DNA from: a virus
Lineage: Duplodnaviria; Heunggongvirae; Uroviricota; Caudoviricetes
Strand: one strand, 5' to 3'
IMG/VR virus record: IMGVR_UViG_3300029071_000017
Length of the DNA: 30,192 bases
The notes beneath the pieces are model-generated. The model was given only the letters and a program-made list of their open reading frames with translations, was not told where the DNA came from and searched no databases. The translations under genes and the position numbers were made by a program. Shown in pieces: positions 17,704 to 30,192 of the stretch; position 1 is the first letter of the stretch; every line of letters starts with the position of its first letter.

Positions 17704-18450
17704 ATGCGACATAATTTTTCTAAAGACACTATAAAAAAATTAGCAGAGCGGGCAGCATTCATTTGTTCAAACCCTTCATGCCCTAGATTGACCATTGGCC
17801 CATCAATTGATGGCAATAAATCAATCAAGACAGGAGTTGCTGCTCACATATGTGCAGCATCTCCTGATGGCCCACGCTATGACATGTCACAATCAGAAAC
17901 AGAAAGGAAGTCAATTAACAATGGCATATGGCTGTGTGCTACTTGTTCTGTATTAATAGATAAGAATCAGGGGCTAGACTATCCGGCACCTGTATTAAGA
18001 AAATGGAAAAAAGATCATGAAAGCCTTATAAGCTCCTGTCTTGAAGGTTCGATTAATATTACCTTCGATGCTTTGAAATATATTCAACAGCATGATGAAA
18101 GAAATCTGGCAAAAAAGATTATAAATGAATTGGATGATAAAGGGGCTTTGTTCGTAGAATATCATCTTGAAAACCCCTGTTTTGTTGCCGAATCACTCAA
18201 AGAGTTAAGAACCTGTTTGACCTCTTTGCTTTCTCAAATCCCAGATGAATCACCTCTATTTATCGTTTGCAAGTCAATTCGAGAAGCATGCCGTTATTAT
18301 ATGAACAACACTTCTAAAGACGCAGGGATTAAAGAGTTAGAATTTTCGTTGGGAGCTGTCAGAAAAATCGTAGGTATCAACGTTAAAAGAATATCAGAAA
18401 CCTACGGGGTTAAACCTAGCCCACAATTATCTACCATAATGCCAGATTAA
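17704..18450 (+). CDS. Moron-encoded protein with HNH-like Cys/His motifs; function unknown
   Basis: 248-aa ORF on the strand opposite to the late genes, AT-rich relative to flanks; N-terminal C-x4-C ... AHI ... NGIWLCATC pattern; own downstream terminator. Confidence 0.6.
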   Translation: MRHNFSKDTIKKLAERAAFICSNPSCPRLTIGPSIDGNKSIKTGVAAHICAASPDGPRYDMSQSETERKSINNGIWLCATCSVLIDKNQGLDYPAPVLRKWKKDHESLISSCLEGSINITFDALKYIQQHDERNLAKKIINELDDKGALFVEYHLENPCFVAESLKELRTCLTSLLSQIPDESPLFIVCKSIREACRYYMNNTSKDAGIKELEFSLGAVRKIVGINVKRISETYGVKPSPQLSTIMPD

Positions 18451-19042: not shown

Positions 19043-19099
19043 TCCACCCTGACCGTGGCCTATCAGGTGGTGGGGATCATCAGCAGACTTTCCACAACA

Positions 19100-19184
19100 N
19101 NNNNNNNNNNNNNNNNNNNNNNNNNNNNNNNNNNNNNNNNNNNNNNNNNNNNNNNNNNNNNNNNNNNNNNNNNNNNNNNNNNNN
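19100..19184. other. Assembly gap (85 N)
   Basis: Run of n characters in the sequence. Confidence 1.
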
Positions 19185-19868
19185 ATCCACTTTCAGCGCC
19201 AGCACCTTTTTCGCCTTATCCTGGATGATGCTGGTGGCAGGAACCGAAGGCACAAGGTCACTTTCCCGGGTGACAGACGGCACAACAGGCTTCGGTAATC
19301 TCAGTGCCTTACGGGCTGCGCTTTCCGGTAAGGCATCCGCCAGATCATTACGAACCAGCCACCAGCACAGTTCCGGCATTGTCACAACGTGACTGTCATC
19401 AAAACCGAGATCCCGACGCACAACAGATAACACCCAGCGAGCACAGTTATCCGTTGCCATTGATTCCAGCCGTTCCGTGAACTGATCGCGCAGCTGGTTA
19501 TCACAGTGCCAGCACAGACGGATTGCGCCCGGCGTGTGTCGCATTGTGGTCATGTTCTCGCTGTGCCAGTCGGAATGAGGCCACTGGCAGCCTTTTTCAC
19601 GAAGTAACCAACTTTCAAGACATTCCACGCCACCAGCACGACGGATCACTGCCTCATTGCGGAACACGGCCCGAACGGCAGGATCATCCGCCAGCGGTTG
19701 TGATGCCGCCGGAACGGCACCACTGGCGAAAGATGAATAACGCTCCGGCTCAGGCTCCAGCAGGACACGCCCCTGCATAAACAGGGGCATCAGCTCTGAA
19801 CCTGGCCTGAACAATACGATCCCCATACGCGGGGCAATTTCAGGGGTCAGTAGTGCTCTCACGGTCAC
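19185..19868 (-). CDS. Hypothetical nin-region protein, 3' end lost in the assembly gap
   Basis: Open frame from the Met at 19868 continuing into the N run; contains CWHC; follows the KilA-N gene with a 1-nt spacer. Confidence 0.5.
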
Positions 19869-20686: not shown

Positions 20687-21076
20687 TCAGGCGGCTGCAC
20701 CCGCCGTTTTCTCGTACTTACTGATAGTGATCTCGACCTTCCCTTCCGGGATAACCGGTCCCCACTCCACCAGCATTCTTTTCACCTGACTGTCGTCTTC
20801 CCACACACCCGCGTGGGTCAGGGCGTCAAACAGCGCCTTGTTATAGTTGTCCAGATCGCGGATCCGGTTATCCGGAGGAAACAACACGATCTCCACTGAA
20901 GCAGGTGCCGACGTTGGTTTCGGCAGACGACGTAACTGCTCAACTATTGCTGCGCACGCTGCACTCTGGAATTTTCGCCCCGCCGCGCTTATCAGGCTCT
21001 TACCAGCAAACGCCCCTTTGTTGGGGTGTCGCCAGTACGTGTTCACGCTGGGCGGAAAAGGCAGGATCAGCTTCAT
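20687..21076 (-). CDS. rusA: Holliday junction resolvase RusA
   Basis: 129-aa ORF with LPFPPSVNTYWRH ... RDLDNYNKALFDALTHAGVWEDDSQV, the RusA catalytic motif pattern. Confidence 0.85.
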   Translation of the reverse strand: MKLILPFPPSVNTYWRHPNKGAFAGKSLISAAGRKFQSAACAAIVEQLRRLPKPTSAPASVEIVLFPPDNRIRDLDNYNKALFDALTHAGVWEDDSQVKRMLVEWGPVIPEGKVEITISKYEKTAGAAA

Positions 21077-21399
21077 ACTTTCAGGCCCCTCTCATGTAAC
21101 CAGTGGGTTGCACGCAGCCTTGCGTTTTCCTCACCGGCAAGCAGTGCGCGGATAATCCCGACCGCCTCGCTGTCGTCGTCCTTCACCGCGGTATGAAGCG
21201 TTATCCCCCGGGCCACGCCACGCTTTATCGTGATGACGCCTTTTTTCTCCAGTGCGCGAAGATGCTCTACCGCTGCATTCACTGAACGGTATCCCAGCAT
21301 GGTTGCCACCTCCTGATTGGTTGGCGGAAAGCCACGCTCTTTCTGATAAGAAATCAGCATATCCAGCACCTGCTGCTGGCATTGAGTTAACGTCGTCAT
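21073..21399 (-). CDS. LexA N-terminal DNA-binding-domain-like protein (no peptidase domain)
   Basis: Start set at MTTLTQCQQQVLDMLISYQKERGFPPTNQEVATMLGYRSVNAAVEHLRALEKKGVI, which parallels the LexA winged-helix domain; about 108 aa, no S24 domain; ATGA overlaps on both sides. Confidence 0.55.
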   Translation of the reverse strand: MTTLTQCQQQVLDMLISYQKERGFPPTNQEVATMLGYRSVNAAVEHLRALEKKGVITIKRGVARGITLHTAVKDDDSEAVGIIRALLAGEENARLRATHWLHERGLKV

Positions 21400-21893
21400 T
21401 ACGCCCCCACGTAATTCCCTGACAGATACCACTCATCACTCGATACAGCGCGCTTGCTGCTTTTCCGTAAACACAGCTCACGACGCGCCAGAAAATTGTT
21501 TCGTTCTGGCTGGGAGTGGCTTTCACGGAATGCCGCCATCCACACGGTTGCAGCACGACGGTATAAGCCCCTGGACTCCAGTTCTTCAGCCTGGCGGGTC
21601 AGGCACAAAATCACCCGTGGATCGTTAGTGCCGACATAGAAATTGCGCACAGGTCTGGTTTCTCGAACTGGTTGTGGTTCCGGTTCCTGCGCTCTCTCAG
21701 TCAGGCGCGGGAAATGTCTGCGTGTATCTCCTTCACAACGGTGAGCCACACGCCCACTCTGACGTAACTTGCTTGCAGACTGCAGAACGCGCTGCCGTGA
21801 GTAACCTGCAAAAGCATCCGCAATGTCTCCGGAAGTACACCCCGGATGGGCTTCAATGCATTTCTGAACGTCATTTAACAGACTCATGATCAC
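21399..21893 (-). CDS. PerC-like transcriptional regulator
   Basis: 164-aa ORF; C-terminal half ...QAEELESRGLYRRAATVWMAAF...RRELCL resembles the PerC/Pch signature as I recall it; translationally coupled to the replication initiator. Confidence 0.4.
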   Translation of the reverse strand: MIMSLLNDVQKCIEAHPGCTSGDIADAFAGYSRQRVLQSASKLRQSGRVAHRCEGDTRRHFPRLTERAQEPEPQPVRETRPVRNFYVGTNDPRVILCLTRQAEELESRGLYRRAATVWMAAFRESHSQPERNNFLARRELCLRKSSKRAVSSDEWYLSGNYVGA

Positions 21894-22846
21894 CCTCTGA
21901 ATCCTGCCGGGATCTGGCTGTAGTCCACGTTGTCGTAACTGGCTTTGAAGTACGGGTCCTCGCGTTTTTCGGTGTACGTGCTGACGGACGGCGATAAGCG
22001 CAGGGAAAGCTCATCCCATTTTTCCCGCAGCTTCGACGGGCTGAGCACGTTACGGCACCAGAACGGATCGCGGCTGACACGGCTGTACATCTCGCAGATT
22101 TGTTTGTGAGTACGCCCATCCTGTACACACATCAGGCGAATTTCGTTTGCCCAGGCTGTCCAGTTCGGTTCTTTGGGACGAACCACCTCGCCGTCACATT
22201 CGGCAGCCTGCTCGTACAGGGCGATGATTTTTTTCCAGAGCCACTGTGCGCAGGTCAAATCATCCTGCGTCCCCCACTGGCGCTTTTTAGGGCTGAATAC
22301 AACCGCATCAGGATGGCGAGTTAAAAAATCCTGTTCAGCCGTCTGCGTGTCCGGTTGCGAAGCGTCCGGACGAGAAGGTTTTTTATCTGACGGATCATGT
22401 TTTGATTTTACTGACGGATCCCCGCCAGATTCTGACGGGTGAAAACCCGCTTTTTTGCCAGATTTCGACGCATCAAATTTTGACGGGTCAGATTTTGATG
22501 CGTCAGATTTTGATGCGTCAGATTTTGACGGGTCAGAATCTGACAGTTGAGAAAATGCCGCTGCCTGAAGCTTCGCAACGTTAAGCTGATAAACATTCGA
22601 CGCATTGCGGTTACCCTGGCGACGCGCCTTACGCGTTAACCAGCCTTCTGCTTCCAGCCGTGCGATAGCCGTTCTGACGGTACTCATCCCCGCGCCAATC
22701 TGACGGGCAATGGTTTCAATTGATGGCCAGCACACACCTTCGTCATTACTGAAATCAGCCAGGCGGGCCATAATTGCCACGCTGGATAACTTCATGCCTG
22801 ATGCAGCGCAACCATCCCATACATAGCCGGTTAATTTAGTGCTCAT
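21890..22846 (-). CDS. Replication initiator (O-like) with HTH N-terminus and iteron-encoded SKSDA repeats
   Basis: 318-aa ORF; N-terminal HTH-like region; central SKSDASKSDASKSDPSKFDASKS repeats encoded by tandem 15-bp DNA repeats; position after the cro/cII-like genes. Confidence 0.65.
   Translation of the reverse strand: MSTKLTGYVWDGCAASGMKLSSVAIMARLADFSNDEGVCWPSIETIARQIGAGMSTVRTAIARLEAEGWLTRKARRQGNRNASNVYQLNVAKLQAAAFSQLSDSDPSKSDASKSDASKSDPSKFDASKSGKKAGFHPSESGGDPSVKSKHDPSDKKPSRPDASQPDTQTAEQDFLTRHPDAVVFSPKKRQWGTQDDLTCAQWLWKKIIALYEQAAECDGEVVRPKEPNWTAWANEIRLMCVQDGRTHKQICEMYSRVSRDPFWCRNVLSPSKLREKWDELSLRLSPSVSTYTEKREDPYFKASYDNVDYSQIPAGFRG
22426..22548. repeat. Origin-like iteron array: about 7 tandem 15-bp repeats CAGATTTTGAYGSGT inside the initiator gene
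   Basis: Direct repeats read in the sequence (cagattctgacgggt, cagatttcgacgcat, caaattttgacgggt, cagattttgatgcgt x2, cagattttgacgggt, cagaatctgacagtt). Approximate coordinates. Confidence 0.65.
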
Positions 22847-22855
22847 GACCGACCT

Positions 22856-23194
22856 CTATTTCCCTGAATTTACGACGAAACTGTTCGAGCGGACTGAAGC
22901 ATTCATGCTCATAACCTTCGCGGAGGTAGATAACCCGTTGTGTTTCCGGCTCCCAACGAATGACTCTGACGGGCACTCCGTAGTGATCTTTGAACCAGCG
23001 GTTAACTTGTCGCAAAGGACTGTCTCCTTCTGCCGGTTGAAATCACCCACAGCCCACTCTGCAAAGCTGTGGGTTACAATTTCCCTGTCACCTGGTACAT
23101 TCACTGCATAGCAATATTCCACCTTCGCTTTTCCACCCGGTACAGGAAGCGCAATCAGTTGCGAGCGACGGTAGTGTGTTGTTAAACTGTTCAT
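22856..23194 (-). CDS. Hypothetical protein
   Basis: 112-aa ORF whose start overlaps the upstream gene stop and whose stop lies about 10 nt before the initiator start; no recognisable motif. Confidence 0.4.
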
Positions 23195-27343: not shown

Positions 27344-27693
27344 TGGAGCCATACAGCCTCACACTCGATGAGGCCTGTCATTTTCTCAAGATATCCAGAC
27401 CGACTGCCATTAACTGGATACGCACAGGGCGTCTTCAGGCAACACGCAAAGATCCCACTAAGAATAAATCTCCTTACCTCACAACACGACAAGCCTGCAT
27501 TGCGGCTCTTCAGTCTCCGCTGCATACTGTCCAGGTGAGCGCGGGTGATGGCATAACAGAGGAAAGAAAATGTCACTCTTCCGCAGAGGTGAAATATGGT
27601 ACGCCAGTTTCACATTGCCGAACGGTAAAAGATTTAAACAGTCTCTTGGAACAAAGGACAAAAGGCAGGCGACAGAACTCCATGACAAGCTAA
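27343..27693 (+). CDS. xis: Excisionase (P22-type)
   Basis: ORF 27259-27693; start set at [38 protein letters not shown], which resembles P22 Xis as I recall it; immediately upstream of and overlapping int. Confidence 0.75.
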
Positions 27694-28733
27694 AGGCTGA
27701 AGCATGGCGGGTCAGCAAACTTGGTGAAATACCTGATATAACGTTCGAGGAAGCGTGTGTCAGGTGGCTTGAAGAGAAAGCACATAAAAAATCACTGGAC
27801 GATGACAAAAGCCGGATCGGATTCTGGCTTCAACATTTCGCAGGAATGCAACTAAGAGACATTACTGAATCAAAAATTTATTCAGCAATGCAGAAAATGA
27901 CGAACCGGCGTCATGAGGAAAACTGGAAACTCAGGGCAGAAGCATGCAGAAAAAAAGGGAAACCTGTTCCAGAATACACGCCAAAACCAGCGTCCGTTGC
28001 AACGAAGGCTACGCATCTTTCATTTATAAAGGCCCTACTAAGAGCCGCAGAGCGTGAATGGAAAATGCTGGATAAGGCACCAATTATTAAAGTGCCTCAA
28101 CCAAAGAATAAACGGATCCGCTGGCTGGAGCCCCATGAAGCACAAAGGCTGATTGATGAATGTCCGGAGCCATTAAAGTCTGTTGTTGAATTTGCACTGG
28201 CAACAGGCTTAAGACGCTCGAACATCATCAACCTTGAATGGCAACAAATAGATATGCAGCGCCGGGTGGCATGGATAAACCCGGAAGAGAGTAAATCAAA
28301 CCGCGCAATTGGCGTTGCGCTGAATGATACTGCATGTCGCGTATTGAAAAAACAAATCGGGAATCATCACCGTTGGGTATTTGTGTACAAGGAAAGCTGT
28401 ACCAAACCAGACGGAACGAAAGCGCCAACAGTAAGGAAGATGCGGTATGACGCAAACACAGCCTGGAAAGCGGCGCTGAGACGGGCTGGTATTGATGATT
28501 TCAGATTTCACGACTTGAGACACACCTGGGCAAGTTGGCTGGTTCAAGCCGGAGTCCCGTTGTCAGTGTTACAGGAAATGGGAGGCTGGGAGTCTATCGA
28601 AATGGTTCGTCGATATGCTCACCTTGCACCTAATCACCTTACCGAACACGCACGGCAAATAGACTCGATCCTGAACCCATCGGTCCCAAATTTGTCCCAG
28701 TCAAAAAATAAGGAAGGTACTAATGATGTGTAA
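27570..28733 (+). CDS. int: Tyrosine integrase (P22 Int-like)
   Basis: 387-aa [51 protein letters not shown]...; C-terminal R...HDLRHTWAS...MVRRYAHL catalytic signature; ends 14 nt before the tRNA 3' end. Confidence 0.9.
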
Positions 28734-28747
28734 CTTATTGATTTAAA

Positions 28748-28823
28748 TGGTGCCGATAATAGGAGTCGAACCTACGACCTTCGCATTACGAATGCGCTGC
28801 TCTACCAACTGAGCTATATCGGC
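28748..28823 (-). tRNA. thrW: tRNA-Thr (anticodon CGU), thrW-type; prophage attachment site at its 3' end
   Basis: Reverse complement reads GCCGATATAGCTCAGTTGGTAGAGCAGCGCATTCGTAATGCGAAGGTCGTAGGTTCGACTCCTATTATCGGCACCA: 7-bp acceptor stem, CGT anticodon in a 7-nt loop, T-arm GGTTCGACTCC, 3' CCA. Coordinates within 1 bp. Confidence 0.9.
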
Positions 28824-28938
28824 CCTGAAAAGGACATGTTCACGAACGTGAATCACGGTGGACAAGGTTAAAACTAACCGGGCGATGCGTCAATGGCCTT
28901 GTGAATCAAATGGCTACTTTTGCATCACCCGGTTTTAT

Positions 28939-30192
28939 TTACGCACGAACGGTGTAATCACCAATACCGATCCACTTGTAGGTGGTCAGCGCTTCCAGCC
29001 CCATTGGTCCGCGTGCGTGGAGTTTTTGCGTGCTTACCGCCACTTCCGCGCCAAGACCAAACTGGCCGCCGTCGGTGAAACGTGTAGACGCGTTAACGTA
29101 AACAGCAGAGGAGTCCACTTCATTGACAAAACGCTGGGCATTGCGCATATCACGCGTCAGGATCGCATCGGAGTGTTGCGTCCCGTGTTCACGAATATGG
29201 GCGATGGCGTCGTCAAGATCGCTGACGATTTTGACGTTCAAATCTAACGACAGGAATTCATCGTCATACTCTTCCGCCTTAACAGCCACCACTTTCGCAG
29301 ATCCTGCCTGCAACTGCGCCAGTGCCGCAGCATCGGCGTGTAACGTCACGCCGCTTTCCGCCATTTGCTTGCTTAACGCAGGCAGGAAGTTATCAGCGAT
29401 GTTTTTATTCACCAGCAACGTTTCTACCGTATTGCAGGTACTCGGACGCTGGGTTTTCGCGTTGACGATCACTTTCAGGGCTGCAGAAATGTCAGCACTT
29501 TCATCAACGTAAATATGGCAGACGCCAATGCCGCCAGTGATCACCGGAATTGTCGACTGCTCGCGGCACAGCTTATGCAAACCAGCACCACCACGCGGGA
29601 TCAACATGTCGATGTATTTATCCATGCGCAGCATTTCACTCACCAGCGCGCGATCCGGATTATCAATCGCCTGCACTGCGCCTGCCGGTAAACCGCAGGA
29701 TTTCAGGGCGTCCTGAATCACCGCTACCGTTGCAGCGTTAGTGCGACAGGTTTCTTTGCCGCCGCGCAGGATCACCGCGTTACCGGTTTTCAGACACAGC
29801 GAAGCGACATCAACTGTCACGTTCGGACGCGCTTCATAAATTACACCTATAACACCCAGCGGCACGCGGCGACGCTCCAGACGCAGACCGCTGTCCAGCA
29901 CACCTCCATCAATCACCTGCCCTACCGGATCGGCAAGATTACACACCTGCCGCACATCGTCGGCAATGCCTTTCAGGCGCGCGGGCGTTAACGCCAGACG
30001 GTCAAGCATCGCTTCGCTAAGGCCATTGGCACGCGCGTCAGCAACATCCTGGGCGTTAGCATCGAGGATGCTTTCGCTCTGTGCTTCCAGCTCATCAGCG
30101 ATCTTTTCCAGCACGCGATTTTTTTCGCGGCTGGAGAGTTGCGCTAATTTATACGAGGCTTGCTTCGCAGCAATGCCCATTTGTTCCAGCAT
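28939..30192 (-). CDS. proA: Gamma-glutamyl phosphate reductase (host gene, complete)
   Basis: 417-aa [41 protein letters not shown]... matches E. coli ProA; start codon is the last three bases of the window. Confidence 0.95.

What the first reader, a model, noticed from the sequence alone, without database searches (positions are those of the whole stretch)
21399..21893. PerC-like regulator translationally coupled to the replication initiator
The C-terminal half (..AEELESRGLYRRAATVWMAAF..RRELCL) resembles the PerC/Pch family of prophage-encoded activators that in pathogenic E. coli switch on virulence regulons. A helicase loader would normally sit at this position after the initiator, so either the replication module is unusual (possibly relying on host DnaC) or this gene has a dual role.
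Basis: inference. Interest (0 to 1): 0.4.

Follow-up and report, generated by a model that had tools for sequence, protein, structure and literature searches.

The report
YfdN-type PerC-like prophage early gene
The gene is real and carries a PerC-like domain, but it is the common, already annotated prophage gene yfdN, and it looks like an optional early regulator or adaptor rather than the missing helicase loader.

Summary
The ORF at 21399-21893 (-) is real. Its likely start is the ATG at 21887, giving 162 aa. Residues 98-152 match Pfam PerC above the curated cut-off (E 1e-9, 39 bits vs 22.6). It is YfdN / SfV orf40. RefSeq already names it 'PerC family transcriptional regulator', and it occurs in 2674 of 5426 complete E. 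coli genomes. It has an N-terminal winged helix, a disordered linker, a PerC/ANR-type helical region, and a conserved C-terminal peptide L-[AS]-G-[RN]-[YF]-x-G. It sits 2 nt after the O-like initiator, but every gene in this operon is packed that tightly.

No helicase or loader gene is present. YfdN shows no loader homology (hhalign against lambda P, probability 0.25%). Two prophages whose initiators are 71-75% identical have no YfdN-like gene anywhere. Some family members lie away from any initiator. The missing loader is better explained by the initiator. Every loader-less initiator examined ends in a peptide matching the extreme C-terminus of host DnaT (SQIPxGFRG), so these modules probably rely on host primosome proteins.

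The best reading is an accessory early DNA-tethered regulator or adaptor. A DNA methyltransferase of varying family usually follows it, though not here. The finding is ordinary, with two side leads.

The parts
21399..21887 (-). yfdN-type CDS, 162 aa plus TAA stop; an in-frame GTG at 21893 gives the 164-aa version that most records annotate
21708..21887 (-). N-terminal winged-helix domain (aa 1-60; helix-helix-helix-strand-strand)
   Evidence: AF2 pLDDT 80-87. Foldseek finds ArsR/SmtB/MarR/BlaI-type winged helices at rmsd about 2 A over about 60 aa. The family profile hits BlaI/MecI/MarR in the PDB at E 3e-4 to 1e-3.
21621..21707 (-). variable linker (aa 61-89), largely predicted disordered
   Evidence: pLDDT below 50 for aa 63-83; length and sequence vary across the family
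21447..21620 (-). PerC/ANR-type helical region (aa 90-147); the Pfam PerC match covers aa 98-152
   Evidence: Pfam PF06069 E 1e-9. NCBIfam ANR 24.8 bits, below its cut-off of 32. AF2 predicts three helices with pLDDT about 89. A 60-aa phage ANR model superposes at rmsd 0.5 A over 57 aa, target TM-score 0.93.
21405..21431 (-). conserved C-terminal peptide WYLSGNYVG (aa 153-161; family consensus [WC]-x-L-[AS]-G-[RN]-[YF]-x-G) in a predicted disordered tail
   Evidence: invariant among close relatives; kept down to about 23% identity and in 77-78 aa PerC-plus-tail-only relatives; pLDDT below 50
21890..22846 (-). O-like replication initiator, 318 aa: N-terminal HTH_36 winged helix, repeat-coded linker, lambda-O-type C-terminal domain (aa 186-282)
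22459..22537 (.). 5.3 tandem copies of a 15-bp unit inside the initiator gene: putative origin iterons, placed as in lambda
   Evidence: the placement comparison with lambda is from textbook knowledge
21893..21919 (-). last nine codons of the initiator, SQIPAGFRG: a DnaT-like C-terminal peptide
21885..21893 (-). initiator/yfdN junction: GGG TGA TC ATG (stop, 2 nt, start; alternatively a GTGA overlap)
   Evidence: read
21073..21399 (-). next gene: 108-aa protein with only a LexA DNA-binding domain; its ATG overlaps the yfdN stop (TAATG). In most relatives a DNA methyltransferase gene lies between the two.

Best explanation
This is a YfdN-type accessory early gene of an SfV/mEp460-like lambdoid prophage. 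It is transcribed with the replication genes in the early-right operon, so it is made on induction or infection. The protein has two parts. An N-terminal winged helix most likely tethers it to DNA. A PerC/ANR-type helical region plus a conserved C-terminal peptide (L-[AS]-G-[RN]-[YF]-x-G) most likely grips a protein partner. By analogy with Pch/PerC, which relieve H-NS silencing, and with ANR proteins, which bind other regulators, it most probably changes transcription or nucleoid-protein occupancy. It probably does not load DnaB. Replication of this module probably needs only the initiator, which carries a lambda-O-type C-terminal domain and a DnaT-like C-terminal peptide and so is inferred to use host primosome and loader proteins. 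Shown here: the domain anatomy, the family membership, the gene's optional presence, and the lack of loader homology. Inferred: DNA binding, the partner, and the regulatory output.
For: PerC Pfam match above the curated cut-off. PHROG 'transcriptional activator' family, 8e-76. Winged helix of the BlaI/MecI/MarR/ArsR type by sequence profile and by fold. The helical region superposes on a phage ANR model. Purifying selection. The tail motif is conserved across a family that diverges to about 23% identity. Pch acts by displacing H-NS at LEE1 (PMC4764244). No loader family hit in Pfam, NCBIfam or PHROG. hhalign against the lambda P family gives probability 0.25%. A profile search of all PDB sequences hits only winged-helix proteins. 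Prophages vB_EcoS-716R3 and Kp4873-4 have initiators 71-75% identical and no YfdN-like ORF in any frame. Family members occur in recombination (RecE/RecT) operons with no initiator adjacent. All 19 loader-less initiators examined carry the DnaT-like tail, with or without YfdN.
Against: No experiment on YfdN function was found. The papers found mention it only as a homologue deleted as a precaution, as a node in a predicted interaction network, or as one of five genes on a fragment that causes filamentation. In every lambdoid context examined the gene sits in the slot directly after the initiator, where lambda has P. That includes domain-reduced 77-78 aa versions. The protein lacks the C-terminal third of the PerC model (the ...RMGI... 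segment of canonical PerC/Pch), so transfer of function from Pch is weak. Winged helices can also be protein-binding modules.
Confidence: 0.5

Rival explanations
1. Replication accessory. YfdN is an adaptor or modulator of initiation, a functional stand-in for lambda P or a regulator of the initiator. It might use its C-terminal peptide on the same host primosome component as the initiator's DnaT-like tail.
For: It occupies the slot right after the initiator in all lambdoid contexts examined (about 18, counting the window), with a -4 or +2 nt junction. The initiators belong to several different types. No helicase or loader gene is present in the window. The initiator's C-terminal domain is homologous to the lambda O domain that binds P in lambda (the P-binding role is textbook). 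Aligned on the last Gly, both tails read hydrophobic(-7) ... aromatic(-3) ... G(-1) (read).
Against: Two apparently complete prophages with 71-75% identical initiators lack any YfdN-like gene, and HannyBb has an initiator followed by a Ren-like gene. There is no homology to lambda P or to any PDB loader, and no Walker A motif. Family members occur away from initiators. All genes in the operon are equally tightly packed, so the coupling is not specific. The tail resemblance rests on three positions and was noticed post hoc.
Confidence: 0.15
2. Methyltransferase-linked function. YfdN-type proteins control or assist the orphan DNA methyltransferase that usually follows them. This copy would then be a leftover after loss of the methylase.
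For: The next gene is a DNA methyltransferase in about 12 of 18 lambdoid contexts, drawn from four unrelated Pfam families. These are Dam PF05869, MethyltransfD12 PF02086, MT-A70 PF05063, and a C5 PF00145 + D12 fusion. In the separate recombination-operon context a C5 methylase lies 1-3 genes downstream.
Against: Presence and absence are independent in both directions. YfdN occurs without a methylase here and in L030, L033 and L040, and in the E. coli copies 99.8% identical to this gene. A methylase occurs without YfdN in 716R3 and Kp4873-4. The slot after the replication genes is a methylase site in this phage lineage regardless of YfdN. No paper linking the two was found.
Confidence: 0.15
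3. A virulence switch in the sense of PerC/Pch: it activates ler/LEE or another host virulence regulon.
For: Pfam PerC membership. Uhlich et al. deleted yfdN from MG1655 as a precaution before testing Pch proteins on a ler::lacZ fusion (PMC5931665).
Against: The gene is in 2674 of 5426 complete E. coli genomes, and the family occurs in Salmonella, Enterobacter, Klebsiella and Citrobacter prophages. The host here is E. marmotae. The protein lacks the C-terminal segment of canonical PerC/Pch. PchD and PchE, also family members, barely activate ler. No data for YfdN were found.
Confidence: 0.05

Closest known systems
YfdN of E. coli K-12 CPS-53 (KpLE1) prophage; SfV orf40; ST64B Sb43
   Same: Same protein family. 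95-98% identity to the E. coli and Shigella phage copies and 67% to ST64B Sb43, with the same two-domain architecture and the same place after the initiator.
   Different: Nothing material. In SfV and most close relatives a dam gene follows, which this prophage lacks. The function of the family is not established experimentally.
PerC (EPEC pEAF) and PchA/B/C (EHEC prophages), Pfam PF06069
   Same: Shares the helical core ...LE.+GL.RRAA..W......ER.....RR..CL, positions 5-59 of the 90-position model, scoring above the gathering threshold. It is also prophage-borne.
   Different: It has an extra N-terminal winged helix of about 60 aa plus a linker. It lacks the C-terminal ...KRPP...RMGI... segment seen in short canonical-type relatives. 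It carries the L-[AS]-G-[RN]-[YF]-x-G tail instead. No LEE activation has been shown.
ANR (AraC negative regulator, Aar-type) family, NCBIfam NF033650
   Same: The same helical unit. It matches model positions 5-51 of 54 and superposes closely on a predicted phage ANR protein.
   Different: It scores 24.8 bits, below the curated cut-off of 32. ANR proteins are single-domain and about 60 aa long.
Lambda P helicase loader (Pfam PF06992)
   Same: Only the gene position, directly after an O-type initiator whose C-terminal domain is homologous to that of lambda O.
   Different: No sequence or profile similarity. It is smaller, has a different predicted fold, and is optional in this module.

Membership tests
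PerC family (Pfam PF06069) | Score at or above the Pfam gathering threshold | tested here: met
   39 bits against 22.6, E 1e-9, aa 98-152
PerC family (Pfam PF06069) | Match over the whole 90-position domain, including the C-terminal third | tested here: not met
   Only model positions 5-59 align. The canonical-type ...RMGI... segment is replaced by the LxG[RN][YF]xG tail.
PerC family (Pfam PF06069) | Small single-domain protein (canonical-type short relatives seen here are about 55-105 aa) | tested here: not met
   162 aa with an added N-terminal winged helix
PerC family (Pfam PF06069) | Activates the LEE1/ler promoter by relieving H-NS silencing | not testable with these tools
   Needs a reporter assay; no published YfdN data were found
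ANR family (NCBIfam NF033650) | Score at or above the curated cut-off | tested here: not met
   24.8 bits against 32. The fold does match a phage ANR model.
YfdN / SfV orf40 family (PHROG 1324) | Full-length match to the family profile and near-identity to named members | tested here: met
   PHROG 1324 at 8e-76 over aa 1-161. 95-98% identity to the phage and E. coli copies annotated yfdN.
Lambda P-type helicase loader (PF06992) | Sequence or profile homology to replication protein P | tested here: not met
   No Pfam hit at E up to 1. hhalign probability 0.25%. A lambda P HMM finds nothing in the window.
DnaC/IstB-type AAA+ loader or DnaB-type helicase | Walker A P-loop and an AAA+ or RecA fold | tested here: not met
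   No Walker A in this ORF; the only Walker A ORF in the window is the large terminase. No such Pfam, PHROG or PDB hits.
Helicase loader, functional class | Required for replication of its module and binds the replicative helicase | tested here: inconclusive
   Comparative evidence only. Prophages with 71-75% identical initiators lack the gene. Binding and requirement need experiments.

The most novel reading that the evidence does not exclude
YfdN-type proteins (a PerC-type helical unit plus the L-[AS]-G-[RN]-[YF]-x-G tail) are modulators of replisome assembly in loader-less lambdoid replication modules. Their tail would dock on the same host primosome component as the DnaT-like ...IPxGFRG tail of the initiator, tuning or competing with recruitment of host DnaB-DnaC. 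PerC-like 'regulators' would then include a branch that acts on replication rather than on transcription.
Probability: 0.1. Interest if true: 0.6.

Novelty: already known. Interest (0 to 1): 0.25.

Why it matters
As stated, the finding re-discovers an existing annotation, yfdN as a PerC family transcriptional regulator, so it matters little by itself. Two side results are worth more. First, loader-less lambdoid initiators of several domain types all end in a peptide that copies the extreme C-terminus of host DnaT. That gives a concrete, testable answer to how these common prophages, including Stx2c and Shigella serotype-converting phages, recruit the host helicase. Second, YfdN is an uncharacterised gene present in about half of E. 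coli genomes. Its conserved terminal peptide and its habit of preceding orphan DNA methyltransferases give defined handles for finding its partner.

Tried and rejected
1. Homology to lambda P. A pairwise BLASTP match of 8 residues (W..AFRE, E 0.2) looked suggestive. Profile-profile comparison of the two families gave probability 0.25%, so it was rejected as chance.

2. The idea that the YfdN winged helix is a paralogue of the initiator's winged helix. BLASTP found no similarity (E above 1).

3. Structure of the initiator. Only a single-sequence AlphaFold2 run was allowed. It gave mean pLDDT 44 and was not used for a fold search.

A 10-sequence alignment found only 11 loci in genome contigs.

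5. Defence-system membership. PADLOC gave only a GajB hit at E 0.009 with no significant stretch, taken as chance.

6. Literature. The SfV genome paper is not held. No paper links PerC-family proteins to phage methyltransferases. The Stx-phage 'Eru' papers do not discuss this gene. The papers read on DnaT structure do not say what its extreme C-terminal peptide binds.

7. Treating the tight stop/start junction as evidence of partnership with the initiator. This was rejected because every junction in this operon is equally tight.

Full report
**Observation.** The minus-strand ORF at 21399..21893 exists and encodes 164 aa from a GTG. The initiator upstream ends ...GGG TGA at 21892-21890. Two bases later comes an ATG at 21887-21885, preceded by GAGGG at -10..-6 (read). 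The ATG start, giving 162 aa, is therefore the likelier one. Pfam PerC (PF06069) matches aa 98-152 at E 1e-9 and 39 bits, against a curated cut-off of 22.6. NCBIfam's ANR model matches the same stretch below its cut-off, 24.8 bits against 32. PHROG 1324, 'transcriptional activator', matches the full length at 8e-76. dN/dS against four homologues is 0.13-0.26.

**What the gene is called.** It is YfdN of the K-12 CPS-53 prophage, equivalent to SfV orf40 and ST64B Sb43. It is 95-98% identical in SfV, SfII, SfIV, mEp460 and Stx2c/Stx2a phages, and 67% identical in ST64B. RefSeq annotates it 'yfdN: PerC family transcriptional regulator'. It is found in 2674 of 5426 complete E. coli genomes (names also). 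Uhlich et al. call yfdN 'the K12 unique PerC homologue' and deleted it before testing Pch proteins on ler::lacZ (PMC5931665). No experiment on YfdN itself was found.

**Anatomy.**
- AlphaFold2 on a 12-sequence alignment gives a winged helix at aa 1-60 (pLDDT 80-87).
- A disordered linker follows (aa 63-83).
- Three helices span aa 90-147 (pLDDT about 89).
- The last 15 residues are disordered.
- The N-terminal domain superposes on ArsR/SmtB/MarR/BlaI winged helices at about 2 A over about 60 residues. The family profile finds BlaI, MecI and MarR in the PDB at E 3e-4 to 1e-3, and nothing else relevant.
- The C-terminal helices superpose on a 60-aa phage ANR model, rmsd 0.5 A over 57 aa.
- An exhaustive profile search finds a small family: 158 clusters at 50% identity. 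About 35 are full-length two-domain members, diverging to about 23% identity. There are also short proteins that match only the helical core.
- Across the two-domain members, and in some 77-91 aa versions, the disordered tail keeps the motif [WC]-x-L-[AS]-G-[RN]-[YF]-x-G. In this window it is WYLSGNYVG, aa 153-161.
- Canonical-type short PerC relatives instead continue with ...KRPP...RMGI.... This explains why only positions 5-59 of the 90-position Pfam model align.

**Setting.** The window is an SfV/mEp460-like prophage integrated at tRNA-Thr next to proA. The ProA sequence is exactly that named Escherichia marmotae, and its DNA is only about 92% identical to E. coli proA. The early-right operon on the minus strand reads, in order:
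- a CII-like gene (Phage_CP76);
- DUF4222 / phrog_1170;
- the O-like initiator;
- YfdN;
- a LexA-DNA-binding-domain-only protein;
- RusA;
- a KilA-N protein;
- DUF968;
- Q.

The initiator has an HTH_36 winged helix. It carries 5.3 copies of a 15-bp repeat inside its coding sequence at 22459-22537, which are putative iterons. Its C-terminal domain (aa 186-282) is homologous to that of lambda O (BLASTP 6e-26). No ORF in the window matches a helicase, DnaC or lambda P. The only Walker A ORF is the large terminase.

**Is YfdN the loader?** Five tests argue against it.
1. No loader family matches in Pfam, NCBIfam or PHROG. hhalign of the YfdN family against a lambda P family alignment gives probability 0.25%. 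The profile search of all PDB sequences returns only winged-helix regulators.
2. Prophage vB_EcoS-716R3 has an initiator 71% identical. It also has integrase, CI, Cro, Q, lysis, head and tail genes. Klebsiella phage Kp4873-4 has an initiator 75% identical. In both, the initiator is followed directly by a D12 methyltransferase and then RusA. An unfiltered HMM search of all six frames finds no YfdN-like ORF anywhere in either. HannyBb, whose initiator C-terminal domain is 60% identical, is followed by a Ren-like gene.
3. Family members in Klebsiella and Salmonella prophages lie in RecE/RecT-type operons near the integrase, with no initiator adjacent.
4. Versions of 77-78 aa, with the helical core and tail only, occupy the same slot.
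5. The tight junction is not special to this pair. Throughout these operons, neighbouring genes overlap by 1 or 4 nt or are 2 nt apart.

One fact still favours a replication link. In all lambdoid contexts examined (about 18, counting the window), the YfdN-like gene sits immediately after the initiator, whatever the initiator type.

**A better explanation for the missing loader.** I compared 22 initiators.
- All 19 that lack a following loader or helicase gene, whether or not YfdN follows, end in ...[IVL]P-x-GFR[GS] or ...LPEN[AS]GFR[ST].
- This holds even though their N-terminal and central regions fall into several groups unrelated by BLAST.
- The three followed by a P gene (lambda, Mulock, Meifeng) do not end this way; lambda O ends TDWIYGVDL.
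- phmmer aligns the last 21 residues of the HannyBb initiator (VQRCVNHISEPDTEIPPGFRG) to the last 21 residues of E. coli DnaT ([21 protein letters not shown]; PDB 2ru8, 6aep, 9zbt_D residues 159-179; E 0.013).
- The window's initiator ends DYSQIPAGFRG, so it shares SQIPxGFRG with DnaT.

DnaT is the adaptor of the PriA/PriB/DnaT preprimosome, which is proposed to recruit DnaB/DnaC (PMC13377028). The inference is that these initiators plug directly into host primosome and loader proteins. The papers I could read do not say what the DnaT terminal peptide binds, so the contact itself is unproven.

**Methyltransferase adjacency.** In about 12 of 18 lambdoid contexts the gene after YfdN is a DNA methyltransferase, taken from four unrelated families:
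- Dam PF05869;
- MethyltransfD12 PF02086;
- MT-A70 PF05063;
- C5 PF00145 fused to D12.

In the recombination-operon context a C5 methylase lies 1-3 genes downstream. But YfdN occurs without a methylase here, in L030, L033 and L040, and in the E. coli copies 99.8% identical to this gene. Methylases also occur without YfdN. This is a lead, not a demonstrated link.

**Mechanism.** The best-supported reading (confidence about 0.5) is an accessory early protein. It would be tethered to DNA by its winged helix. Its PerC/ANR helical unit and terminal peptide would bind a protein partner and so alter transcription or nucleoid-protein occupancy. This is modelled on Pch, which displaces H-NS (PMC4764244). 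The rivals are:
- a replication modulator, about 0.15;
- a methyltransferase-linked role, about 0.15;
- a LEE-type virulence activator, about 0.05.

The last rival is weakened by the gene's presence in half of E. coli genomes and in many other enterobacteria, by the E. marmotae host, and by the missing C-terminal PerC segment. PchD and PchE show that family membership does not guarantee ler activation.

**Verdict.** The gene itself is already known and annotated, so interest is low. The DnaT-like initiator tail and the conserved YfdN tail are the parts worth following up.

Noticed in passing
window 21893-21919 (-); also L001, L002, L006, L011, L016, L018, L021, L023, L024, L025, L028, L033, L036, L037, L039, L040, L042, L044: All 19 phage initiators examined that have no loader or helicase gene after them end in a peptide matching the extreme C-terminus of host DnaT (...SQIPxGFRG). 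Their other domains are unrelated to one another. The three initiators followed by a lambda-P-type gene lack this peptide. This suggests direct hijacking of the host primosome.
   Followed up: partly
loci L001, L002, L006, L011, L018, L021, L023, L036, L037, L039, L042, L044; also L003, L010, L014: YfdN-like genes are usually followed by an orphan DNA methyltransferase from one of four unrelated Pfam families (Dam, D12, MT-A70, C5 or C5+D12 fusion). This window lacks the methylase.
   Followed up: partly
window 21073-21399 (-): A 108-aa protein consisting only of a LexA DNA-binding domain, with no peptidase domain (Pfam 3.7e-19). Its start overlaps the yfdN stop. It accompanies YfdN-like genes in most lambdoid contexts and is absent from the two YfdN-less prophages.
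   Followed up: no
window 17704-18450 (+): A 248-aa ORF on the opposite strand between Q and the lysis genes. It matches the PADLOC candidate defence protein PDC-M68A (7.5e-27) and endonuclease-effector models, and has no Pfam hit. It is a possible prophage-borne anti-phage defence gene.
   Followed up: no
window 22836-23194 (-): Two ORFs overlap out of frame just upstream of the initiator. One is a 59-aa DUF4222 protein (22836-23015; Pfam 8.6e-19; PHROG 1343). The other is a 112-aa phrog_1170 protein (22856-23194; 7.6e-70). Gene callers pick one or the other in related loci.
   Followed up: no
window 22459-22537: A 15-bp unit repeated 5.3 times inside the initiator gene, encoding the DASKSD repeats. 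These are probably origin iterons, placed as in lambda.
   Followed up: no
window 27570-30192: The prophage is integrated at tRNA-Thr beside proA. The ProA protein is exactly the sequence named Escherichia marmotae, and the proA DNA is about 92% identical to E. coli. The host is therefore cryptic-clade Escherichia, not E. coli proper.
   Followed up: yes
window 19100-19184: A run of 85 N (masked sequence) interrupts the DUF968 / HNH-like ORF at 19080-19868.
   Followed up: no
literature: UTI89 chromosome 4,997,073-4,999,597: A 2.5-kb UTI89 prophage fragment carrying 'yfdN2' and four neighbouring genes caused filamentation when over-expressed. The responsible gene was not resolved (PMC6206680).
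   Followed up: no
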